A stretch of DNA of 64,000 bases from Phoronis australis (lineage: Eukaryota > Animalia > Phoronida): the NCBI GenBank assembly GCA_002633005.1, contig NMRA01000157.1:1-64000 (forward strand), in the 5' to 3' direction. A program made the translations under genes and the position numbers. Positions 2,949 to 64,000 of the stretch are shown in pieces; the stretch's first letter is position 1, and every line of letters starts with the position of its first letter. Below the pieces are notes generated by a model. It was not told the origin of the DNA. It ran no database searches and saw only the letters and a list, made by a program, of their open reading frames with translations.

Positions 2949-46899
<43,951 letters not shown>

Positions 46900-47231
46900 A
46901 AGAGTGACAACTATTTTGTAGAGGTGTTGAGTGCAACTGATATTAATTTGTATATTGCAGCATGACTTCCACATATTAAATCTGCTTTAGACTGTTTGTT
47001 ATTGCTTGAGATCAGTATCAACAAGTTGGATTGACTGGAAAATATTAACCAAAGGTAGTCTCATCACTGAACACTAAATGGCGCTACAAGTTGCTACATT
47101 GAGACTCCAAATATTGACAATTGCCACCTCAGGTAACAGATCTCTAAAAAGCCTTTTCACTGATATGTCCACATGATTGCCTGCTGTGTATTAACTAGCT
47201 CGCCTCAATCAAGTTTGAAGTGATGTCAAAA

Positions 47232-47237
47232 AATAAA
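47232..47237 (+). promoter_or_regulatory. Candidate ATM polyadenylation signal
   Basis: AATAAA about 330 nt after the ATM stop; an ATTAAA also occurs near 46975. Confidence 0.4.
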
Positions 47238-47387
47238 CTATTGCACACTAATTTTGCAGATTTGCTTCAATTCAACTTAAAAAATTAGATTTAAAAGTAA
47301 ATCTAATTTTCAGTCGTAGCAATGATTAAGAACAAAATTCTTTAGCCCGTAATCCACACTGTTCTTCGTGTCAGATTTCGGCCCACT

Positions 47388-50300
47388 TCATCTGTAAATC
47401 ATTGACGACATGTTTTCATCTGGCCTATTTTCTCCCATGTATTTCTGCAAGCAAAATGTACAGTTTAACAGTTTAATTCAGTTGAGATGTTGAATCCTTT
47501 GTTTTATATGTTGATACTGTACACGCCAAGAGTAATCGCACAAAATGCCACGTTTCGTCATGACTGTTGAATGACGCTTGTACTCGGCCATCATGACGGA
47601 ATTCTGGGTCATTTTGTCTCATTATTTTTATCGTGTGCTGTTAAGTTCGAAACACTGTTTGGGTTTGCGTTAAGGTCCGAAAATGTTTCTCTGAAACTTT
47701 TCCATTTAGCCTTGATAAGAATGACCTTACAATTAATACGAACTCAAAAATCACTAGGGGGCGCTAGTGTAAGAAGGATCTCGTAGAANATACATGCATT
47801 CTGATAATGATGTGGGACCCTGATGCTGACTGTGAACTCCTTGCTGCTCTAGATCTGTCTGTATGTTAAAAAGTGGGAAAGATTGATGTACTTCTGATGT
47901 TATGTAGGACCCTAGAAAAAAGTCCATGTTTGACTATCTTAGGAAAATTATGTCAGAAATGACTGTTGAATGAAACTTTCACAATATTATGCTTCACGCA
48001 TTATTCTCTAGAACCCTGTTAGAAGTTGTTTTTAAAATATTTTACGTTTGCATGAGGGGCTAATAAAAGTAGGACTTCATAACTTTCATAAAATGAAATA
48101 TCTAAGAAACCTGACAGCATTCTTGACAATTTGCTCTGTTGTTGATAACGTTTTGCTATCAACGCTCCTTTCCTTTTCGCAACATCAATTTTATTAAAAA
48201 GTCACAGTCATGTAACCCAATTAATGTCAGATTCATAAATAGTCCTAAATCAATTTTACAGGCTTTTTACTTTCAAAAAATATATTTTTTTACTTACTAA
48301 TAGTTAAAATCTAAGTTTTGTAGATATTTAGCTATTGCAGACTTGTCATGAAGGCCCTACATAACCTAAATTATAAGTTATGCACTATTTTTGATTCATG
48401 CATAATCATTGCAATTCATCTTGTAATGCAACGTAAAACAGTGTTGTTTAATAGTGCACGACCGTATTTTGTATATATTTGTAGATTGCGCAGCATGCTT
48501 CCTCTAGTTAGCAGTTCCACTTACCAAGGAATTGCTGAGTTCGTTGTTAAAACGTAGTCTTGTTAGTCTTCCAATAACTTCTTGGAATCTTGCTATGTTC
48601 TGCAATAAAGTTTATTTTGTTACTGGAAAATTGTCGTGCATTTAATATTGTTTTAAATGCTCTGTGTGTATAAACTGGTCCATTTACTAACTGAAAAAAT
48701 AAAGAACACGGTATTAAACGGCCAACAATTCCTTTTGAAGGCACAAATTTCACGGAAATGCGCTGAAGTTGTAAAAACTTCGATAGGACCTTATATATTT
48801 CATGGCAAGCCTAGAGCAAATATGAGGTCCTTCAAATGTAGTTTATATATTAAGTAAAAAACCTTAAATTGGCGCAAGGGGCGACCACAAATTTTTAACA
48901 GTCACAATGTAGCCGAATGAAGCTCTAATTTGGTTGTGTTGAAAGCACAGACTTCAAGTTTCAATAAATAAGTTTGAGGTCACGAACTGGGCTTACAAGA
49001 AATTCAAAACATGCAGACTATAGTATATATTGTGTACAATGTTATGCAAATCCTAGAATAAAAACTTTTAAAAAAGATTCCAAGCAAAACTAAGGTTTTT
49101 GATATGGCACAGCATGTGACCTTATAGTAGACCTCCTGCTGCAATCCAAGTTTAAACTAATTCCTTTCTGCTTGTAAATACACCAGTGCACAGTGTACTA
49201 CCAATAACCGATGTACGAAAGCCTTTAACATCCAGCTCATGCAAATAAAACACCCTTGTATTTATCACCTATGAAACAAATACACAAACTGACAAAAAGG
49301 GAAACCATTCACGAACCCATACGTACACACAACATGGACAAATAAAGTAATTGGCAATATTGCCTTTTTTCATTTTGCAAGGGCTTCTAATGATGTGAGT
49401 GCCCCAATCTTTCTAAAATATTGCTATGGTACAGACCTTGAATGTGCAAAAGCATTACTTAAGTGGGAAATTATGGAAAAAATGAAAAAATAAAATTTCA
49501 TGTATCTACCATGTCGAGTCCAAAATTGGTGAGATTTTAGCGGACATCTTTCAACTTTCCCGTGTGTTCACTTGAGGTAACCACTATATGTGGGTGATTG
49601 AACAGCCTTGCCCCAGCTTGTTCATTGGACTGGCGCAGGTGGGCCTGGTGTCTTGCTAAGACGACTACATGTACTACAGGCATGTCATAATGCAGTACTC
49701 GCCTGTTTTGACCCATCCTGCTCATTAGCCTGTCCCAGGTGGGCCTTGTGTCCGGGCAAGATGACCAGGTTGGTTGGGGTACCTTCCACTTGTAACAATT
49801 GAATCATTGTTGAGAGAAACGGGTCGCAGATCTCTTTGTAGCCAGGCAATGACGGATAGTCGTCCAGTACTAAAAGAAAATGCCCGGGTTAAAGCACTGA
49901 AAATCAATTACAACTTAATATTGCACTTTTTTAATTAATCATGTTTACAGCATTTCAAGAAATTTTCAAAGCTCCCTTTTGATCTAACTTTCCATGATGA
50001 CACACACAAAATTTATTTTCCATCCACTACAAATATGCAAAAATTATACAATCTGGTAAGGTTAAAAACAGCACAGCTGGGACTGGTCTGCACCTGACTC
50101 ATTTTTGATACCAGTGTCTCGAACAAAAAACAGACCAGAAACTGTTAAGCTACTTTGTGTTGTAGACACTGCAATGACATCAACATCAACTACTTGTATT
50201 CATACACATGTATAGATATGACGCATCATACTACTGATACAAGAACCTAGTAGAAAAACAAGACATCACAACATATCACCACACATAACAAGCCAACCGA

Positions 50301-53300
50301 GTGACCACTCTTATTCGCGAAATTCTTGCATGTGTGGAAAACAACACACACTTGTTTCATAAACATTGAGATAGGCACGTCAAACAGTATTAACAAGCAA
50401 TCTCAACACCAAGGACTTCATTAAATTTAAAAGAGTGGACTACTTAGTGTAACAGGGCCCAGGTGGCAGAACACGTCTTCGTTGCCAAACAACCAATCAC
50501 AAGCCACTTACTCCGTTCTGTGAAGAAGCAGTTTTCAAATAGTTCATCCTGTTGTCGCTTTGGTAAGTCAAGTTTGAGAGATGACAGTAGTATTATCCTT
50601 TCTACTTTCCTGAAGAGTAACGGACGAAACGATGGGAACATTAAACAAAAGGCTACCACTGATGATGCACAAAGCAGGGAAGTTGAGATGGTCTATGCTC
50701 CAAATCGAGCAACGCCTGGGGAAATCTCACCAGTTCAGGACACAGTTTTGGAGGCAAATGAAATTTAGTTTATTAATAATTTCATTTAGTTTAATTTCAT
50801 TTTCTCATAAAAGATAAGTACCATCAAAACAAAGCTGCACTATTTTCAGGTTCTGTACCATAGCTAACATCATACAAAATTGTGGACATTCGCAAAAATG
50901 TTAGAAGGCAGTGAAAATGAAAAGTGGCAATTTTGACAATTATTTTTGTCCAGAAAACTAACAAAATTTTACCATACCACTACCCCTAATATAACAGCAC
51001 TACAATTTGGCAACAAAATTTAAGGCTCAAAAATATTAAGCTTCTATAACAGGCACTTGCAGTATAGAACATGAGATCTGTAATGATGAGTCAGTAAATT
51101 TTAAGCAGCTTACCATTTGGCACACAGATCCAGAAATGCGTTGGCAACATAATGGCACTTGTTACCCGGCAATACGGTATTTATTACCACGATGGAAAAC
51201 TGGAATTGAGAAACATTTCAAACAAAGCAATAGAGCACGGGTGGAACACACATTTTTTTAAACATTTTGATTCAATTTGATTCTGTTTAGGAGGAACTTG
51301 AATACTTGAAACAACATTTCAGAAAAAAGTGCATAAAGTACTATGTATTATCTGAAACTTTCATTTGAATCTGGTCAGCCCTTTGTGATATACGAAGTTA
51401 GCGAAATTTAGATATGTTTCTAGTATCCAACATAACCTTACTATAATATGCAAAACTAAGTCTTATGTCTCTTTAATTTCAGTTGTAAACAAAAATACGA
51501 GGTGATAATAAGTTTTGTAACAAAATTCTCTTAGACTAGTTTGGGACTGTCTCAGTGAAAAATTAGTAGGAGCTTGTACCAAATTTTAGAAATAGCTGTT
51601 TCAATTTCAAGAAGTACATGTATGAGAAAATCAGGAAAATTTGAGTGTCTGAAATTTTGAAATTGACATAGTAGTGCATTACCAGCTACGCATCTTTCAA
51701 ATAAATGGTTAGATTGAGATATAAGGTTAATATGCTAATATCGCCCATGTCCCGAACCATAACATGGCTTGAACTTCAGTCTCAAAGTTTAGAGATTGTC
51801 CCAAACTGGAGATTTTTTTACTGTACTTAAGGTCAAATAGGAAACAGTATTATGAATTTTCACTAAGAACGAACAGTCTATACAAGGGTGGACACAATCT
51901 GCTATGCGCCAAGATTTTTTGCACACGAGTACCATTCAACTTGATAGAACAAGTTAGAACGTTACTCCAACAAAAGTTTGGTATTATAACAAAGCACAGT
52001 TCAAAGAAACTAAAACTGAACAATGAGGAATTGCACTCAATACAAACCATAAACAGAAACACAAAATTAATTCAATTAACACACACGTATGGTTAAAATC
52101 AAGTTTGGCACACAGCATGGGATTCTTGCTCTGGACGAAATTGTGGTGGAACACAATACGCTCATGTCTGGAAACAGCCTTGGTTAAGTCTACAATCTAA
52201 CATTAGATGACTAATGATAAGCGGCTGAGACTTAATGTGCTTTTTCTCCTATTGCATGCATTTTGTGTAATGTTACGGTAAAATCCCATCAGCTTCGAAC
52301 AAGTGCTAAAATTGCCTTTTTCATTTTTCAAGGGCTTCTAACTTTAATAATTTCTCGAACAATATTCATTTGTAAAACGGTAGCTATTGAACATGCCTTG
52401 AAGATGGAAAATCATTAATTTGGTACTATGTATCTTTCATGCAAAAAATGAGAAATAAAATTTCACTTGTCGGCCATATTGTGTCCTGAACTGGTGAGAT
52501 TTTACTGCAGCGTGCAGTGCAAAAAATCCTATTTAAAATTTGCTTGCATAATTACTGGATCTTCAGCCATTTTCAAAAAGGCATCGGGGTACTGAGACTA
52601 GTGAGAATTTTACAATTTCACAGAATGCAGCTAGGTCCAATGAATAGTCAGATGAGCTGTTTTTCGAGATGACATTTTAAGATGTACATCCACTTTGCAA
52701 ATTTGGTTACCCAAAGACAATTCAATTAGTTAATTTTTTCAAATTACATTATCAAAATAATAAATTTATTCTACAATTTTTCAGATTTAAAAACCATACA
52801 AGATCAATGTATCCAATGTTGCCTTAATTTGAATTAAGAATTAGAACGACCGATCATTTTTGTGTGACAAACAGACAAGTATGCAAGCAGACATCTGAAC
52901 GAGAATGTGAATCTTCATACAAAACTTACACCTAAGTCCTCTTGACCCTGTAAGAAACAGTGATCGTAAGTATTTGTAGAGCGTTTCATGAACACTATGA
53001 TCTATTATACAATGCAGGGATGAAATAGGAGAGTAACAGAGGATCCAGACTATATGCCAACTGTAAACCTTGACCTCTTTTAACAGCAGTGTTATGAGTG
53101 ACTTTCAGTCGTACCAAGGAAAGGGGAAATTTGGGGTCATCTGCAAGTGAAAGTGTATAACAGTTATGAGTGTAACGCAGCAAGACTTTCTGATGCGAAA
53201 CATGCTTCCTTCGAGAAAATGCGAAATGTGTGAGTTTGAACCAACTTCTTTCACACATCTCTAAGCTAATGTTTGTCAAATCAATGTCAGCATCACTTAC

Positions 53301-54748
53301 GTGAAGAAATATTATGCAAAACTGCCTGTGTTTAGATTACCTGTGTTTAGATTGCCTGTGTTTAGATAGCCTGTGTTTAGATTGCCTGTGTTTAGATTGC
53401 TCCAACAATTTCTGAAAGTCACTCTGCAGCTCTTCAACTGGCAATATGCTTAATTATAATTGTTGTTAAAAAGAGTGCAGGTGGTCTGATGTTTTTTTGT
53501 GATAGATCAGATATGCGCCAGCTAGAGTTGGGTCCACAGCACAAAACCCTTGAGCGAAACTCAGAGAATTGAGCATCAGATTCTTCGTGAATTCAAAGTA
53601 ATTTTCGAACTTAGATAAGAAATTCATAAGATTTTTTTGTCATGAGCTTTACGGCACCATCCAGGTGTTTGTTCCTAAACCTAGTATGAAAAATGAACAA
53701 GACCCCCACTGGATGCTCAGATGTTTCGACATCTCGGTACATCGATCAGGACATATTGGACTATCCATGAAACCTGACGTATTGTTATCGTTACCTCTTC
53801 ATATTTACAGTTGAGAACCTGGAGTGGACGGAATTCCTGCTCAAAGGGAAGTGGTTTTGTGTCCCGTTCACAGGCTGGTGCATTCTGGGCCACTTCTGGC
53901 ACAGCGATGCCGTAGTACTCAATTCTCATGTCAAGGCCAAGTAACGCACGGCTGAAACAAACATTATTGAAAATAATGGAGATTTAACAGCTTACATTAC
54001 AAAGCGTGCTTGATAACAGTAAGATTTCGCCAATTTCCATCAAAAACAATTGCCAGGATTAATCTTTTATCATTTTCAAAAGGTTCTAATTTTGTTGTGA
54101 AGAGAAATGATGCCCACATACGAGTGCACATCATAGCGGCTGTGCAGAAATAGAGCTCACCATCATATTAGCATTCATGGCCAGGAATGAGGAGGAATCT
54201 AATGAAGAGCATGGCGCGAACGTCACTTGACCTCAGTGATGGGTCAATCCCAGCCATTTTCAAATTAGATGTCAATGACGCAGGGTTCTCCCAATGCAAA
54301 TAGCAAACTTATTTTCATGTCTAAATCTTTATTTCGCCTGTTTCACAGAAATTTTCTATACAATGGTTATGTAGAAGACATTACTTTCACTTGTGAAGGA
54401 AGACGTATCAGTTTTATAACAAAAAAACAACACTTAGAAGTTTGTTTGTGATGTAAAGCAGATTAAAAATCCGGCAGCGCCATGTTTGAATACATGAAGC
54501 AATAACACTTTTGCTGGTAAATCATATTTGACCATACTACTTTTACCATAAACTATTGAGCACCCAACCTTTTAGATGAACTCATTATCAAGATTTCAAG
54601 TATAAAATTAACTGCAGATTTGGTTGCTTGTGATTATCAACATCAGCACATGACTTCAACCAACCAACCTTCCAGCTGCACAAATGTCTGTGTATCCAAG
54701 GATAACCGTCTTCCTCAGATAAACTTCTCCAAGTTCTACTTGTTCCAT
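47388..54748 (-). CDS. Uncharacterised 239-aa PAC1/PAC2 (proteasome assembly chaperone)-like protein with C-terminal HbYX motif
   Basis: Seven phase-consistent minus-strand exons: 54748-54669, 53951-53795, 51199-51114, 50609-50512, 49869-49703 (GC donor), 48599-48525, 47444-47388 (720 nt). Protein: MEQVELGEVYLRKTVILGYTDICAAGSRALLGLDMRIEYYGIAVPEVAQNAPACERDTKPLPFEQEFRPLQVLNCKYEEFSIVVINTVLPGNKCHYVANAFLDLCAKWKVERIILLSSLKLDLPKRQQDELFENCFFTERILDDYPSLPGYKEICDPFLSTMIQLLQVEGTPTNLVILPGHKAHLGQANEQDGSKQNIARFQEVIGRLTRLRFNNELSNSLKYMGENRPDENMSSMIYR. The gene structure is well supported; the family assignment is by motif resemblance only. Confidence 0.8.
47751..47767 (+). promoter_or_regulatory. CTCF-consensus-like motif
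   Basis: TCACTAGGGGGCGCTAG closely matches the CTCF core CCACYAGRKGGCRS; motif match only. Confidence 0.45.
51537..51808. mobile_element. MITE-like element
   Basis: agtttgggactgtctc ... gagattgtcccaaact: 16-bp inverted termini with 2 mismatches. Confidence 0.5.
52310..52510 (+). repeat. Dispersed ~200-bp repeat family (related copies near 4750-4925, 46450-46540, 49360-49540, 63380-63595)
   Basis: Shared blocks 'ttttttcatttttcaagggcttctaa', 'aaaatttcacttgtcggccatattgtg' and 'ggtgagatttta'. Confidence 0.65.
53324..53400 (+). repeat. 15-bp tandem repeat, 5 copies
   Basis: (GCCTGTGTTTAGATT)5 with single substitutions. Confidence 0.92.
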
Positions 54749-55782
54749 GCTTATCTACAAAAATAAATATTCAGTGTTTATGGACAGGATACAGTGGGGC
54801 AAACGATATTTACGAGTTTGGTCGTGGCATAGTTCCAGATGTCCCGCTTTTTCTGATGCTGTTTTTTCATTTTCAAATGTTGGCAACTATGCATCGTTTG
54901 TGAAGGCTTAAGACCTTCGCACAGCAACATGCAGTGATTCTTTGTTTTGGCTAGCTCATTTAACATTTGACGACATGAGAATTTTGTCAGGTCGCACTTA
55001 GCCAGTTGACATGCAAAGCATCCAGCCCTGAGTGCGCCAGAAGCTTTTTGGTGAGTTATGCCTTGCCATGCCAACAGACAAGTAAAGAATGGAGGGGTGC
55101 CTTAAGTGACCGTTAATGTCTTTAAATCTTCCCAGCTCTAAAATAAACTTGGGGAAACATGTTTCTTTTCAAAACTTCTTTCATTTATCAACAAATTCGA
55201 GAACTGGCTATAGGTCTTGGTGGATCACTAGAGGTCGATACTTGTCCACCAGGATCGGCCCTCTTATAACTGCTGCCACCAAGAACTTAGTAGGCTGCAA
55301 AATAGCAATGTCAATGATTTAGTGTAAGAACGTACCAGAAAGAAATCTGGATTCATACAGTATTTAGCAAGTTGGGAGGATTTAAAGACATCAACAGCCT
55401 CTAATGAATCTCTCTATGCTTGAAAGGTACTTATAGCAATGAGACTTTGATGATTTTGCCAGAGTGAGATATAATTTGCCAACACGCTTAGTAGGCATGA
55501 CCAGGTTTGAACCTGTGCCTTTTGGGCGCACCTGATGATAAAAAGTGCGCCTTTTATCAAAAAGTTGTGCCCAGCAGACTTAGCGTAATTGAAGTGGTAA
55601 CATATGAAAGAGAAACCTAAGGGCAATCAGAATAAGTCATGTTAGGCTGTAAGTTGACTAGAATCTTGCATTTTTGGAAGAGTGTTGCGCCCAAGGGCGC
55701 ACAGCTACAATGTACTTGTGCCTTTTTTATTTTTTGATGAGCTAATGGCGCAAAGGCGCAGTCCAGGAATACTACAGTGTAC

Positions 55783-55937
55783 CTGTATACAGGTATGAGA
55801 GCTTATCTTAATGTTTTTAGCACATATCTCTGCCAGAAATATGTCTCATAACGTAGAATTGTCGTGAGCCGTGAGGACTTGACAGGGACCTCAGGGGTCT
55901 CACACTCCGCTGATTTATCCACAATTTTGTCTAACAT
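55783..55937 (-). other. Putative 5'UTR exon of the PAC-like gene, carrying a 44-codon uORF
   Basis: Acceptor ttttgtag|ATG at 55937 and donor acag|GTACAC at 55783. The ATG frame stops (TAA) at 55803 and no frame is open across the exon. Confidence 0.4.
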
Positions 55938-56217: not shown

Positions 56218-56665
56218 CTAGTCAGAGCCAACGGCCACAAGAGAGCTAACAATCACCAATCCAGGATGTTACTTTTCCTAAAATGACCTACAAAAAACTT
56301 TCTAGTTTTCCAAGTAGTTTTGAAACACGCATGTTGATTGGTTATATCACTCTGCTAGTCATCTGTAGTTTAATTGGTGATCGCGCACACACCTCTTAAC
56401 CTGCGTAGCAATACTTTCCTACATAAAAAATACTTTTAAAAAGGTCTGTAGCAAATTTAATGGTTAGGTATCCCATTTACATTTGTTTAAAGGCTATAAA
56501 TGTAATTTTATTCATATTAAGTCGCAATTCTATTTTTCAAGTCCATTTAAAATTTTACATTTTGTGCGGATTGTTTCAAGTTTACGAGTACTTCGTCCGA
56601 CCCACTTAACACAAAACACTGCAGGTGCTGCGAAGAGCAACTCTGAGATAGCAACATATTAGACA
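56218..56665. promoter_or_regulatory. Probable bidirectional promoter between the PAC-like gene (-) and ALDH4A1 (+)
   Basis: A minus-strand donor (ctag|GTGAGC, exon ending at 56218) defines a likely non-coding first exon about 450 bp from the ALDH4A1 ATG. Three CCAAT/ATTGG boxes lie near 56256, 56337 and 56373. Confidence 0.55.
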
Positions 56666-59600
56666 ATGTTACGGTCATTGAGGTCTGTATTATCGACTGA
56701 ATTGCGTAGGTAGGTAGTTTGACCGTGCACAGGGCTTAAGTTAAACCATGGCCCATATTAATACCTCATTTGTAATAGTCTACTAGTACTCAAGTCTCAA
56801 GTTATACACGATCCTGGTCTGGTGTCTTGACTGGAGACTTGTCCTAGCCAAGTTTTCTGCAAAGCAGCCAGTTATGCAACATTAGTCTGGGTAATGGTGT
56901 CATGCTTTGTCCTGTTATACAAGGTTAACATTTGTGTTGTTTTTGTCGTTTCCTGCGGCAAGTCGTAGCCTAGGAGACTGCACACATACGGTAACCCCTC
57001 GGCTGGCTGGACAGAGGCTATGTTGTAGACAGTACCACCCTCTAAACTGAAGAGATGGTGGCCATCCCTTAAGCCATCCCTACAATGGAAGCTTGTTGGT
57101 GAATTATGCCACTCACTGATTAACCCATCGAAGTTACGTTGCTATAAGTAGCTTTGCACACAGAGTGACACCTTAGAAGATTGTTGATGTCTTTAACTCT
57201 TCCCAGCTCAAACAAATGCTCCTGCAGTCAAAGTACTTTGTTCAGTTTGTGCAAAATCATATTCAAGCTACAAACCTTACTTAAGTTGACAGCAATTTTT
57301 CAAACTCTTTAGAGAATATGTTGTAAGAATTTTTCTCAGCGACACCAAATTATGATAATAAGCAGCTTTAGACTTCTTAGAAGTTCATCTGATTGTCAAC
57401 GTTATGGACAAGAAAGATGTTGGACCACAAAAATCTGAGCTCTTCCGAGCAGACTTGCAGGCTGACACAGAATGGGCTTATCTATGCGGTGTTGTCTGAA
57501 CTCTTGTATCATGCTTTGATAGATTTGATGTGATGTTAGTATAAGTTTGTCATCATTGTAATGAGTGTAATGCATATAACGCTATCTTTCGTTGTTGGGT
57601 GCAAAGTTAGGTTAATGTATGTAACAAAGAGTGTAAACATTATTGAGTAAGTGAGAGACTGCTGTTATTTAAAGCTGAATTTCACCCTTGTTCAGCTGTC
57701 AATGTTCAATTCTTAACCGCAGTGCTTTGGGGTTTAATAACTTCACTGCATTCATCCAGTCAAGAATTATTACCGAATGAGTTGGCAACATAAGCCACAG
57801 GTAATATGTCCTTTTCCAATCAATTTTAGGATTGTCCAGCTATAATAAACTCTAAAGCATTTTCTAGAGTAGTTGATGGTTTCGGTGTTCTTATTGGTCA
57901 TGGAAATTGTTATGTGATCGTCTCGGTTGTTAGTGTTTACTACTTCTACTAGTTTAGTCGGCGCATGTACCATGTGATGTAATTCATTAGACACACCTTT
58001 CGCACAAGGCAGTTGCACATTGCCAGCTGTGTAGAATAGATTTTTTTTAATATGTATCCCGTTGATATTTAGTTTTTATCCTTTTGTTTACTAAAACACT
58101 TCTTCATTGCGGTAGCAAAATATTGCAGAGACAGAATCCCGTCGTAGTAGCAAATATTATGAGACTAATTTTATGATCTCAGAATAAAATGCTAACTTTG
58201 GTTTTCATATTTTTAGCCACGTAAACAGGGCCTAATTTAGCTTTAAATTTATAGAATAGAATATCAATTTAAAGTAAATAATGAAACAAAGTGAAGTTGA
58301 AAAAAAATGCAATACATGTTGAGTTGGATATTATCCAGACTTATCTGGTTGCACCCAAAAGTGCTCCACTGTCTTTTAGAATAAAGTATTTGGTTCTCTA
58401 TTCAAATGAAAATCTCATTTACAAAATCTATGGATTGTACTCATTTTCAACTGAATCGGGGCAGACAAATGTTTGAGACTTGTGTGAGAAATCTCATTTC
58501 ATACGAGAAGGTATTTTGTTTGTGTTACTTGCTGCACCCTAATTCAGCTGTGGGCTTCTATAAGGTATGTCTGAAGTGGAATGCTTCACATTGGCCAGTA
58601 TGGCTACCAGAAAGAACGTCTGATGATGCCTCTTTTGACAAGTGATGAGTTTGAAATATTTTAACAATCATTTAAACTTTAAAACATAAGAAAATATTGA
58701 CACCTAATCCACCTTTCCTTACCCCAGTGTTTAACAACTGAAAGAGCCCCTGTGCAGGCCTCTTCAAACCCTTTTTCCAGATAACTGTTATGTGGGGGGT
58801 TCTTGATGGGGGCTCTTTCCGACATTCGTGGTACTGGTTATTGTGTTAGGCAAAACAAGACACCAAATGTATTTGCCATGAGATAACACCTGTTTCAGTA
58901 TCAATTTAAAGGTCGAAACACTGACAAAAGCTTTTTGTAGCTCTCTTCTTTTTGATAATTTTTTTCACATATGCGTTTTGCGAGGCCAGTCACCATTTAC
59001 TTGGTTCAGTATCTAGTATTTCATGATTCTCCTTATCTTCTGTCAATATACCCTCATATCAGTCTCTACAATAATTAGTTCAATTGGTCAAATGTTGCCA
59101 ACTTTATGATGGCTGAATGTCAATGTGGAATTATTGCATTATTACCAAGGTGCTGTTGCACCTGAATGCTGTCTGAGTGGATATCATCAGCGGCGTTTTC
59201 CAGGACTAGTTTTTAAGTGTCACCACCACCTGTTTGCTTTCACCTGCGACATGTTTAAATGACCCCATGACCTGGAAAAATAAGGATCGGTTTGAAAACA
59301 GGCGTTGCAATCGTTGACGATGTATCTACAGGTTTAAAGTCTAGGTTTTTTGTCTCGTACTGCTTAAGGACTTCGGATCATGGCAGATAAAGCATTCAGA
59401 TGTACCGTATTGGTACTGCAAGGACATTAAAACAGAGATTGTCTGCCACCGGTTGCATCTGGCACGTTTGTTGTTGTTGGCACATTTTCAATACATTCGG
59501 GATTCCAGTTGTGAACTTGTGGGGAACACTGGTTGGTGGGCAAGGCCTTTTCAACTGGTAACTGTAAAGGGAAAATATTTGCTCTGAGCATAAAATCGAA

Positions 59601-62600
59601 CCCGTGAAAGGGTCAGCAGGTGTTCACATATTAATGCGAAGAAACAGATTCAATTTATGTCCGTTGTTCTGGGGTATGATTAACAGTATGATATTCCGTT
59701 TGTGCCCGAAAGTGAACACTTCTTATGTTCTTTTTTATGCATATGACACATGACATTAACCAAAAAATGTAAACGCATGTGATTAAACAAATTTAGTATA
59801 AAATTATATTTAGCAAGAATTTCTTATCATTTCTGAGACGCTAGATATTTTTTAATGAGTGCTCGATTTCCTAACTAGAATTCATTCTATCGAATTTTGT
59901 TGAAAGAAAGGCTGTGTTTTAAACAGTAATTTATCAGAGTGCAACACGAAAGTCACATTTCGATACTTATCAAATATCATCCTCGGGTAAAACTGTAGAC
60001 AGAAAACAAAATATTGTAACAGAATGTTCGCATTACAATGCATGGCACGTTTTCTGCCTTCTGTAAAGTACCTGAGGATCATATTTGGTTAATATCGAAA
60101 TGTCGCTTTCATGCTTCACTCTAGTGTCATTTTTGTTTTCGACTTCTTCTAATTTGGCCAATAACTGATATTATTCAAGGCACATTGGCCTGACCAGTCG
60201 GGGAGCGCACAACCTACTCAACTACGTGGCCACGAATGAACCTCTACAGGAGTATTTACCTGGCAGTGACTTGAGGATTCAGCTGGACAAGGCCTTGCAC
60301 AATGCCGAAGGGGTGTGTCATGAGGTGCCCATCGTCATCGGTGACGAAGAGTTCAAGAGTGATCAGGTCAAATATCATGTTGCGGTAAGTCCTTTTACAA
60401 AATTTCCATAGCAAAGATTCCGCCACACGGTGCTGCACCATGTTTTACACCATGTTGAGAAATCTTTGACCATATTTGAAAAGCTCTGAGCCATGTTTCA
60501 AATCTTAGACGTGGACCGCTTTTATGCAGTAAGGTCTTTGTCATGTGATTGCACGGACGGCAAAAGTGAAATTAGATCTATCAGCAAAAAAGTAGAAGAC
60601 GAGTACAAAATTGTCAAAAAAATTATTTTTTTCACTCATATTTTTTAAAATTCTAGGCATATTGGGCTATTTATCGGTCCTTTGACCATCCAAAATCCTG
60701 AAAGTTCTTCCTTGTGCAGTGTAAAAAAGGCTAACTTTGTTCTATTTTACAGCCCTTTGATCATCAGACTCAAATTGCAAAATTCTACTATGCTACCGAG
60801 GTAAGTGTGCTTGTATTAAACTACTGTGTGTCTTATTTCAGTTGGTAAAGTAGTAGACAGAAAGTTAGTAATACCTTTTGCTGGAAAAATTGCGAAGTCT
60901 ACCTAGCATGTGTTCAGTATTGGTTACTGCTGTTTCATTTGTGTATCCACGTGCCCTCTACCAATTATAAAGGTACCATCATACTCATGAATTATCTGTC
61001 ATTTTACTCACTGCCATGATGGGGTCGTTAAATACGAGTAGATGGTTGCTTACTCTCATGCTTCTCCGTGCTAACTCCCATGTTTGGCTTATAACTCTCT
61101 CCTGAATATTCCACCAAAGTTTCGCTTTATGCTGACTAAGTTCCTACTCCTAATTCGTGCATCGGCGACTTCCTTAAAAGAGCTAGTGAGTGTCTTTGTG
61201 AGCGCCAGTCTGAGTCTCACAAGGATTTTGGTCCCTTAAAGATGTATTTGCATGCTCTTAACTATGCGAGTATATAGTAGGAATTAAACAACAATGTAAC
61301 TTTAAAGATATATTTCCGTGCTCTTAACTTTGCTAATGTATAGCTGCAGGAACTAAATGATAATGTTATTTGAACATCGTCTACGCTAAACAGAGTGCAG
61401 TTGAATTGATTGACAACTTGTATATGTGAAAACAAAAAAAAATCTGCAAATAGTTGACATTTGTACTAATTATGTACCTTGAAGGCTCACATAGCCCGCA
61501 TCATGCAGTGTTATTCCCCAACACCACATCACATTACATATTGGACACAGTTGAGTGATTTACAGCTGATCATTTTGTACACAAAGCTCATTCTTAAAAG
61601 TATTCCGCAATTTTTAATGTACTTCATATTAACAGCGTCGCTATATGTTGTGTTTCTGGCCACAGAGATAAAGAATTAGCGTGCAAGTTTCACTTTGAAC
61701 ATAACTATGCTCAAACAGCCAGTTTCAGTCATATTCGAGCAGGAAATGCCCACTTTTTACTGAAGGAGATGTGAAATGGTTTTTAGGGTCACTAGTTTTA
61801 ATACTGTACCTGGAAGCAAAAAATGGTGAAGGATTTGTGTTAGCAAATCGACCATTCGGTTAAGCGTCGATCCCCGACTTCTCAATTTTTTGCTCGTTTC
61901 CACTCCAGTCCCACTCTCTGATTTTTTAATTTCCTAATTTAAACACTCTGATGTTAACTTGGACAACTGCAGTTATGTTTAGGAATTATTGTTTTGATAA
62001 TTTCAATAATTTTTAAACTCTTTTGAATCAAACTTTTATCTTGGAAAACATCAAAAGCAATTTTGAAAGGCTTTGCTTGATGTATCTGTGTCACCTTTCA
62101 GAAACAAATACAGAAAGCAATTGAAGTGAATCTAAAAGCCAGAAAGGACTGGGAGAAGCGACCTCTGGAGGAACGATGTGAGATCTTCTTGAAGGCTGCC
62201 GACATGATAGCTGGCTCGCATCGTATGGACATGATGACTACTACCATGTTGGGCCAGGTAATCAGTGACACTTGTGCTGTGGATAACACCTCTGAACTTA
62301 AGTGTGAAATAACTGTTATCCATTTTAGTAAAAGCTTTTGTCATACTTGAAAGTGCTGCGGCTATAAACACTATTCAGCTCTACTGCTTCGCAGTAGAAT
62401 CAATCTTAAGAGTTCGGAGATTGGGTCGTGCCTCATGCGTTGTTCCTGTGTCAGTTTAACCTTACCTGGAACGAACAGTAATTTGGGTGATGGAATGTGT
62501 TCATGAGTTAAAGTTTTCGCTTGTGTTCCAGGGAAAAACAATTGTCCAAGGAGAAATCGACTGTATTGGTGAACTGGTGGACTTTTACAGGTTTAATGCA

Positions 62601-62612
62601 CAGTTTGCAATG
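56666..62612 (+). CDS. ALDH4A1: Delta-1-pyrroline-5-carboxylate dehydrogenase, mitochondrial (first 5 exons; continues beyond the window)
   Basis: Exons 56666-56709 (MLRSLRSVLSTELR, Arg/Ser/Leu-rich mitochondrial presequence), 60180-60384 (NEPLQEYLPGS..EVPIVIGDEEF), 60753-60800 (PFDHQTQIAKFYYA), 62102-62257 (ARKDWEKRPLEERCEIFLKAADMIAG..TMLGQ), 62532-62612 (GKTIVQGEIDCIGELVDFYRFNA); collinear with human ALDH4A1. Confidence 0.95.
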
Positions 62613-63543
62613 GTAATTCAAATTCAAGCTCCTCTTATTTGATTTCCAGTTTCCTCTTTTTTTCACCTCTTTTTATCATTATTTTGACTTTATTCTTGCA
62701 AAAAAATGTTTCTTGCCATTAAATTTTAAAACACAAATATTTATTGCTATCACGTAAGCCTATTCACCTGGAAAATCATCTTATTTTTCATGGGTCATTC
62801 CAAGCCCTGCATAGGACACTTTTACTCACATCTTTAAGTTCACTGACTTTCATTTAAAAGAGACGTGTGTTGAAACTAGATAAAATGTGATAATGTAAAA
62901 GTTGGTAAAACAATTAAAATCTGGTAAAATTTTGTATTAAAGACACTCACCTCTGAGCCTCATAGAAGTAACTCTTCATCATGTACGAAAACAGCCTTTT
63001 GTGCCATTTGTGTTCATACCTGATGAAGGGCTGCCCTAAATTAGACTCAAATGTTAGTGTTCTTAAGAAAAAAATTTACCCGATTTTAAAGTGTTACCAG
63101 CTTCTGCATTGACACTTTGATTCCTTATTCTCATTTCGGCTGTGACAGCTCTAGTTTATCATTCTTTGGTTTAAGATGATTTGTTTTTCAGTTTTATAAT
63201 ATTAAAATCATGAAACATATTTTGAGTGTGAGTGCAAGACCTTGCATATTACTCTTGCAGGCTTGAGGTGTCACTGAGCTTTCCTGGTCAATTTTCTTTA
63301 TTTTGAAGCGTGTCATTGCTCCACTGGTCTTCATTTTTTGTGTTGTGGTAATTCTCCACGAGCATAATTGCCAAAAATTTGATTTTTCATTTTTCAGAGG
63401 CTGATAACTTTGTCACAAATAGTAGGAACTTTAATTACAAAAATGTTCTTTTGTGACATCAAGTACGCAGTTTAAACTATAGGTCTAGTAAAGGACTAAA
63501 GTTTTCGCAATCTTTATTTTTTCAAAGAATTTTGTCAAAATAG

Positions 63544-63593
63544 AATTTCACTTGTCAGCCATATTGTGAATTTCACTTGTCGGCCATATTGTG
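63544..63593 (+). repeat. 25-bp tandem duplication inside a dispersed repeat copy
   Basis: aatttcacttgtcagccatattgtg followed by aatttcacttgtcggccatattgtg. Confidence 0.85.
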
Positions 63594-64000
63594 TGCTTAT
63601 GTGAAAAATTACCGTATGCAGATAAAATTCCGCCCCAGCAGTATTGTTATCCAAGAATCATTGTTATAGGTACAGTACACGACAAAAGTGATAGACAAAA
63701 TAGCATTTTCCCTTCATGGCAACTAATCATGTTAACAGCAAAATGACCTGAAATGACTTTTATAGCGACAAAATTGTAATGATCACAGCATGGCTTAGTC
63801 ACATTTTAAGTTTCCTATTAATTCCTCTTCGTTTTAACGAAGAATTCAACTTCACTCAGTCGTCATGGTGGGAATTCTGGGTCATTTTGTCTGAACGCTT
63901 TTTGTGTGTACTGTGTAAGGACATGACCTTACAGACAATATAATGCGCTTTCGGTACCTTTTTAAAAAATGGAACAGCGGTGAGTATAAGACCATGGCAT

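What the first reader, a model, noticed from the sequence alone, without database searches (positions are those of the whole stretch)
47388..54748. Hidden gene for a divergent PAC1/PAC2-fold protein ending in an HbYX motif: candidate unrecognised 20S proteasome chaperone or activator
Seen: a complete 7-exon, 239-aa ORF ending in a polar linker and ..SSMIYR-stop. Known: a C-terminal hydrophobic-Tyr-X motif docks into 20S alpha-ring pockets (PSMG1/Pba1, archaeal PbaA/PbaB, Rpt2/3/5, PI31). Resemblances by eye: TVILGYTDICAAGSRAL to PAC2 TLLMPAVSVGNVGQLAM; VANAFLDLCAKWKVERIILLSS to the PAC2 helix-strand 'VIVLSS'; YPSLPGYKEICDPFLSTMIQLLQVEGTP to PAC1 CPLLEQPNIVHDLPAAVLSYCQVWKIP. It lacks the PSMG1 acidic N-terminus and LEQPN signature and the PSMG2 GNVGQL signature. 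Inference: a third animal paralogue of this family that could gate or assemble 20S proteasomes, perhaps as a homo-oligomer like archaeal PbaB.
Basis: partly seen in the sequence, partly recalled or inferred. Interest (0 to 1): 0.8.

Follow-up and report, generated by a model that had tools for sequence, protein, structure and literature searches.

The report
Invertebrate third proteasome assembly chaperone paralogue
This is a real, expressed invertebrate gene for a protein with the predicted fold and conserved docking-type tail of proteasome assembly chaperones; it is likely the animal counterpart of the plant chaperone PBAC5, so it is probably an unstudied member of a known kind rather than a new system.

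Summary
The gene is real. Seven minus-strand coding exons give 239 aa ending Ile-Tyr-Arg. All six coding introns (one GC-AG) and an extra 5' UTR exon appear as joints in RNA reads.

Full-length relatives (27-51% identity) occur in molluscs, annelids, a nemertean, a hemichordate, amphioxus and a jellyfish. RefSeq calls them uncharacterized, and 20 of 26 end in HbYX.

An AlphaFold model of a 51%-identical relative matches the PAC2/PbaA/PbaB fold (Z 17-19, 8-16% identity). No member reaches the Pfam PAC2 cut-off or hits PAC1, so it is unlikely to be PSMG1 or PSMG2.

A third HbYX-bearing paralogue, PBAC5, is described in Arabidopsis, with homologues reported in metazoans. The commonest Pfam match here (sub-threshold, 11 of 28) is the plant family DUF7894, which I recall, untested, to be PBAC5.

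Best reading: an animal PBAC5-type chaperone that joins PAC1-PAC2 on the assembling 20S alpha-ring. Orthology to plant PBAC5, partner binding and proteasome binding are not shown. My literature searches found no functional study of an animal member.

The parts
56218..56290 (-). 5' non-coding exon (its 3' end at 56218 is exact; the 5' end given here is approximate)
   Evidence: RNA joint 56218->54754, 13 reads; in-frame stop at its end
54669..54754 (-). Coding exon 1 (ATG at 54748; residues 1-27, first core strand and start of the conserved N-terminal motif)
53795..53951 (-). Coding exon 2 (residues 27-79)
52930..52947 (-). Likely minor 18-nt in-frame cassette micro-exon with AG/GT ends
   Evidence: 2 reads in X3 (table 5c); splice sites checked
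51114..51199 (-). Coding exon 3 (residues 80-108)
50512..50609 (-). Coding exon 4 (residues 108-141)
49703..49869 (-). Coding exon 5 (residues 141-196; invariant D156, Q164, D192); followed by a GC-AG intron
48525..48599 (-). Coding exon 6 (residues 197-221)
47388..47444 (-). Coding exon 7: polar linker, HbYX tail and stop
47391..47399 (-). HbYX codons (Ile237-Tyr238-Arg239)
   Evidence: tail conserved in 20 of 26 relatives

Best explanation
An expressed gene encodes a 239-residue protein predicted to have the PAC2/Pba fold and ending in a conserved HbYX tail; it is likely the animal PBAC5, a third chaperone that would bind PAC1 beside PAC2 and plug its tail into a further pocket of the assembling 20S alpha-ring. 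Shown: gene structure, expression, a family across invertebrate phyla, tail conservation, and low similarity to PSMG1 and PSMG2. Predicted: the fold, from a 51%-identical relative. Inferred from Arabidopsis PBAC5: a PAC1-PAC2-PBAC5 heterotrimer, docking at the alpha4-alpha5 pocket, stabilising early alpha-ring intermediates and keeping other HbYX caps off immature cores. It lacks the long N-terminal extension with which Pba1/PAC1 threads the pore, so it would act as a third foot, not as the pore plug.
For: Fold: the best matches are human PAC2-length chains (Z 17.1-18.9, rmsd 3.0-4.0, 206-213 aligned), 3gaa (18.6), PbaA (17.1) and PbaB (15.2), above nucleoside phosphorylases (at most 11.4). 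HbYX ends 20 of 26 relatives against about 1% per protein by composition (relatives are not independent). Not PSMG1/2: 0 of 28 members list PAC1 or POC1 at E<=1, PAC2 appears in 6 of 28 and below cut-off where bits were shown, and identity to the human chains is 8-13%, while amphioxus and jellyfish members share 31%. The commonest Pfam match is DUF7894, 11 of 28, at profile positions 141-223 in the rows shown. DUF7894 clusters are land-plant proteins of 227-241 aa with the same predicted fold. A review reports PBAC5 as an HbYX-bearing heterotrimer partner with metazoan homologues (PMC9105311, section 5 read).
Against: No plant PBAC5 sequence could be fetched, so orthology was not tested directly. 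That DUF7894 is the PBAC5 family is my recall. The DUF7894 scores are weak (best E 0.002; at most 17.3 bits where shown, cut-off 27) and hardly better than PAC2 (best E 0.003). The Atlas does not favour DUF7894: 25 of 30 feature hits are PAC2 clusters (0.94 against 0.93), TM is 0.65 to both, and the family's own cluster carries PAC1 on 14% and POC1 on 11% of members. UniRef names some members PAC1 and others PAC2. The primary PBAC5 paper could not be read. Mytilus members end Hb-Phe-X.
Confidence: 0.6

Rival explanations
1. An animal paralogue that arose from PAC2 independently of plant PBAC5 and kept or gained HbYX; it would still be an alpha-ring assembly chaperone, for example an alternative partner of PAC1 in place of PAC2.
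For: Structurally closer to human PAC2-length chains (Z 17-19) than to PAC1-length chains (Z 13.0-14.6). 25 of 30 Atlas feature hits are PAC2 clusters. All named relatives found are animals.
Against: DUF7894 is matched by more members than PAC2 (11 against 6 of 28). Metazoan PBAC5 homologues are already reported. One distant unnamed JGI member (P0071, 31%) lies on a long branch outside the others.
Confidence: 0.17
2. A PbaB-like homo-oligomeric, ATP-independent activator that caps and opens mature 20S cores.
For: It has HbYX on a flexible linker (pLDDT under 50 for the last 12 residues of the model) and no pore-plugging N-terminal extension (14 residues before the first strand, 5 in amphioxus). 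Pba1-Pba2 without the Pba1 N-terminus activates mature cores (PMC9105311). Archaeal family members rank among the best fold matches.
Against: The described eukaryotic members of this fold act as hetero-oligomeric assembly chaperones. PbaB scores below PAC2 and PbaA in the fold comparison.
Confidence: 0.12
3. It is simply a much-diverged PSMG1 (or PSMG2) orthologue.
For: All PAC1 homologues carry HbYX. The Atlas cluster has PAC1 on 14% of members. Some UniRef labels say PAC1 or PAC2.
Against: 0 of 28 PAC1/POC1 Pfam hits and PAC2 below cut-off. 8-13% identity to the human chains although a chordate (amphioxus) member is 46% identical to the window protein. No approximately 50-residue N-terminal extension. 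RefSeq leaves all members uncharacterized.
Confidence: 0.06
4. A PAC2-fold protein with a non-proteasomal role, with the tail serving another partner.
For: The fold is shared with nucleoside phosphorylases and with bacterial proteins of unknown function. No binding data exist here.
Against: Phosphorylase matches score clearly lower (Z at most 11.4). A terminal Tyr at exactly the penultimate position is kept from jellyfish to amphioxus.
Confidence: 0.05

Closest known systems
PBAC5 of Arabidopsis (Marshall et al. 2020, J Cell Sci, doi 10.1242/jcs.249862; known here only through reviews PMC9105311 and PMC8543921)
   Same: Third PAC1/PAC2-related protein with HbYX; homologues reported in metazoans. 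Similar length and weak sequence match, if DUF7894 is its family (recalled).
   Different: Sequence similarity is below any cut-off. Orthology, trimer formation and the alpha4-alpha5 pocket are untested for the animal protein.
Human PAC2/PSMG2 (264-residue chains such as 8yix_g, 8tm4_d, 8qyj_J; chain identity inferred from length)
   Same: Closest solved fold, Z 17-19, over about 210 residues; short N-terminus.
   Different: 8-11% identity; Pfam PAC2 below cut-off; this family ends in HbYX, which human PSMG2 does not (recalled).
Human PAC1/PSMG1 and yeast Pba1 (8yiy_c, 8yiz_f, 8qz9_I, 4g4s_O; chain identity inferred from length)
   Same: Same fold (Z 13-15) and C-terminal HbYX.
   Different: No Pfam PAC1/POC1 match in 28 members; lacks the long N-terminal extension (the human chains align only from residue 51-57).
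Archaeal PbaA (3wz2, 5y9n), PbaB (3vr0) and the Thermoplasma protein 3gaa
   Same: Same fold (Z 15-18.6); HbYX-type tails (recalled).
   Different: 7-16% identity. These are homo-oligomers (recalled); the oligomeric state of the animal protein is unknown.

Membership tests
PAC2/Pba fold superfamily | PAC2-type alpha/beta fold | tested here: met
   Model of relative P0005 (51% identical; pLDDT 85) gives Z 17-19 to PAC2, 3gaa and PbaA
PBAC5 | C-terminal HbYX | tested here: met
   Ile-Tyr-Arg-stop; 20 of 26 relatives
PBAC5 | Sequence orthology to plant PBAC5 | tested here: inconclusive
   DUF7894 matched by 11 of 28 members, below cut-off; that DUF7894 is PBAC5 is recalled; Atlas ties DUF7894 and PAC2
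PBAC5 | Present in addition to separate PAC1 and PAC2 genes | not testable with these tools
   No genome is held; no PSMG1/2 query sequence was obtainable
PBAC5 | Binds PAC1 to form a heterotrimer and docks at alpha4-alpha5 | not testable with these tools
PSMG1/PAC1 | Match to Pfam PAC1 (PF16094) or POC1 (PF10450) | tested here: not met
   0 of 19 and 0 of 9 members at E<=1; the Atlas cluster, however, carries PAC1 on 14% of members
PSMG1/PAC1 | Long N-terminal extension that threads the core pore | tested here: not met
   14 residues precede the first strand in the window protein, 5 in amphioxus and Glandiceps, 5-59 across 24 rows; human PAC1-length chains align from residue 51-57
PSMG2/PAC2 | Pfam PAC2 (PF09754) at gathering score | tested here: not met
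   6 of 28 members match weakly, best E 0.0033; 17 bits or less where shown against a cut-off of 25.8
PbaB-type activator | Homo-oligomer that activates mature 20S | not testable with these tools
   Needs biochemistry

The most novel reading that the evidence does not exclude
This family is not a helper of PAC1-PAC2 but a PbaB-like, ATP-independent homo-oligomeric cap of mature 20S proteasomes, kept from cnidarians to amphioxus and not found in vertebrates, arthropods or nematodes by these searches: an animal proteasome activator class missed because the standard model animals lack it.
Probability: 0.12. Interest if true: 0.78.

Novelty: new member of a known kind. Interest (0 to 1): 0.4.

Why it matters
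Textbook animal 20S assembly uses PAC1-PAC2, PAC3-PAC4 and POMP. This family suggests that many invertebrates, up to amphioxus, keep a further HbYX-bearing factor of the PAC1/PAC2 fold. If it is PBAC5, a three-footed chaperone is probably old in eukaryotes and was lost in some lineages, which raises the question of how humans and yeast do without it. The members are unannotated or inconsistently labelled PAC1 or PAC2, so a defined family with a verified gene model corrects annotation and gives testable proteins. The concept itself was published in 2020, which limits the surprise.

Tried and rejected
Searches with single exons mostly failed: Pfam 0 hits for 6 exon pieces, word-index search 0 hits, PDB sequences 0, Atlas no usable hit. 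Only the full HMMER search with exon 5 worked (28 hits). I dropped 5 of those 28 (P0002, P0004, P0012, P0015, P0026) as multi-stretch repeat proteins with no BLAST match to the whole protein.

A 9-sequence profile found no PDB chain by sequence at E<=10. NCBIfam gave one weak TIGR00161 (proteasome assembly chaperone family) match in 19. Two scans of metagenome contigs found no relative.

The homodimer prediction for P0005 gave no verdict (score 0.00; alignment not used); it is no evidence either way.

No vertebrate, arthropod, nematode, plant or fungal member was named. These searches are word-limited or used one exon, so absence is not shown.

The primary papers (Marshall 2020; Gemperline 2019) are not held; their text and supplements may name the metazoan PBAC5 homologues and settle membership. 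Eight literature searches listed no study of an animal member and none mentioning DUF7894.

An apparent alternative acceptor at 49866 is a synonymous allele. The tree (24 rows; P0029, P0008, P0047 left out; no outgroup) is poorly resolved and was not used for orthology. Earlier scan notes held nothing on this family. One search was an uninformative comparison.

Full report
Observation. Seven minus-strand exons between 54748 and 47388 give a 720-nt frame, 239 residues and one stop, ending Ile-Tyr-Arg. Five introns are GT-AG and intron 5 is GC-AG. RNA reads from three runs with the same species label show all six coding introns, with 11 to 28 reads per joint summed over the runs, all on one strand. 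A further non-coding exon is joined 56218->54754 and puts an in-frame stop just before the ATG, so the protein is complete at its N-terminus. The gene lies tail to tail with ATM and head to head with ALDH4A1/P5C dehydrogenase. No whole genome is held.

Family. A HMMER search with exon 5 gave 28 hits; 5 were unrelated repeat proteins and were dropped. Two profile searches extended the set. Named members come from Lineus, Ridgeia, Lamellibrachia, Owenia, Haliotis, Mytilus, Crassostrea, Mizuhopecten, Pecten, Mercenaria, Plakobranchus, Elysia, Glandiceps, Branchiostoma and the jellyfish Sanderia. Identity to the window protein is 27-51% over 216-238 columns for the 23 rows aligned. RefSeq names them uncharacterized; UniRef labels a few PAC1 and a few PAC2. 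A profile of 19 relatives scores the window protein at 328 bits against at most 8 for 200 shuffles.

Tail. Twenty of 26 cluster representatives of 160 aa or more end in hydrophobic-Tyr-X, against about 1% per protein by composition. The rows are related, so this is conservation, not 20 independent events. Of the six misses, Mytilus ends Hb-Phe-Ser. The other five leave the alignment near the end and look like faulty gene-model ends (inference); P0018 has the motif at the aligned position followed by extra residues. The X position is free (S, M, E, A, L, V, G, I, R), as expected of the motif.

Fold. I could not fold the spliced window protein itself, so I folded the relative P0005 (51% identical over 234 residues) with a 19-row alignment: pLDDT 85, pTM 0.83, last 12 residues low confidence. 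Foldseek's 30 listed rows are all proteasome-assembly entries or PAC2-like prokaryotic proteins, at 8-16% identity. The wide structural search ranks 3gaa (Z 18.1, rmsd 3.6, 210 aligned), a human 247-residue chaperone chain (17.3), PbaA (17.1) and PbaB (15.0) above nucleoside phosphorylases (11.4 and lower). On a second look, human PAC2-length chains score 17.1-18.9 and PAC1-length chains 13.0-14.6, the latter aligning only from their residue 51-57 (I assigned chain names from length).

Not PSMG1 or PSMG2. In 28 members scanned, Pfam PAC1 and POC1 never appear at E<=1, and PAC2 appears in 6, below its cut-off where bits were shown. An amphioxus member is 46% identical to the window protein and 31% to the jellyfish member, while the modelled member is only 8-13% identical to the human chains; orthologues would not behave so. 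The family has no conserved N-terminal extension (14 residues before the first strand here, 5 in amphioxus), whereas the Pba1 N-terminus threads the pore (PMC9105311, section 5). Against this, the Atlas cluster of the family carries PAC1 on 14% and POC1 on 11% of members, and I could not show separate PSMG1 and PSMG2 genes in this species.

Comparison with what is known. A review (PMC9105311; passages and section 5 read) describes PBAC5, found in Arabidopsis, as an HbYX-bearing protein that forms a heterotrimer with PAC1-PAC2, binds between alpha4 and alpha5, and has homologues in fungi and metazoans. PMC8543921 (passages) adds that pbac5 mutants are salt-sensitive. The primary papers are not held, so I have not seen their species list. 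The commonest Pfam match in the family is DUF7894 (7 of 19 and 4 of 9; best E 0.002), whose Atlas clusters are land-plant proteins of 227-241 aa with the same predicted fold (TM 0.65). I recall that DUF7894 is the PBAC5 family; no call shows it. The signal is weak and PAC2 scores almost as well, so PBAC5 membership is likely but inconclusive. That it works like a PAC/Pba alpha-ring factor is better supported than that it is PBAC5.

Mechanism. Shown: an expressed gene and a conserved penultimate Tyr behind a polar linker. Predicted: a PAC2-like core with a flexible tail. Inferred from the known family: the tail enters an alpha-ring inter-subunit pocket, and the core binds PAC1 so that the complex has three feet on early alpha-ring intermediates (0.6). 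The invariant residues D21, R28, A29, G32, D156, Q164 and D192 are candidates for the partner surface (inference). Rivals are an independent PAC2-derived animal chaperone (0.17), a PbaB-like homo-oligomeric activator of mature 20S (0.12), a diverged PSMG1/2 (0.06) and a non-proteasomal role (0.05).

Verdict. A real and correctly spotted gene of an unannotated invertebrate family, most likely the animal branch of an already described chaperone. Eight literature searches listed no functional study of an animal member; the library lacks most subscription papers. Novelty: new member of a known kind. Interest 0.4.

Noticed in passing
window 52930-52947 (-): Likely 18-nt in-frame cassette micro-exon between coding exons 2 and 3 (2 reads in X3, canonical AG/GT). 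Haliotis RefSeq isoforms differ by a 4-residue insert at the same position, which hints at a conserved alternative splice.
   Followed up: partly
window 49702-48600 (-): Intron 5 has a GC donor, confirmed by 23 reads; this may be why gene callers would miss or truncate the gene.
   Followed up: yes
window about 1-46899 (+): Large multi-exon ATM kinase gene; its last exon matches human ATM at E 3e-15. Reads of both orientations cover 46700-47570 and ATM-sense reads run on to about 48500, so the two 3' ends probably overlap in antisense.
   Followed up: partly
window about 56600-64000 (+): ALDH4A1 (mitochondrial P5C dehydrogenase), head to head with this gene; first exons lie about 300-400 bases apart, suggesting a shared bidirectional promoter.
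   Followed up: partly
window 52229-52519, 49319-49609, 50774-51064, 55868-55923: Short intronic stretches with high read depth on both strands and many loose ends, probably copies of dispersed repeats.
   Followed up: no
proteins P0044, P0061 (Mytilus) and P0028: These end in Hb-Phe-Ser behind a basic linker instead of Hb-Tyr-X behind an acidic or polar one: a natural tail variant for docking tests.
   Followed up: no
protein P0071 (unnamed JGI record, 224 aa): The most distant member (31% identity, long branch) keeps the N-terminal motif and HbYX; it may be non-animal and could bridge to fungal or plant PBAC5.
   Followed up: partly
window 53320-53400: Short tandem array of about five 15-base units in intron 2, seen by eye.
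   Followed up: no
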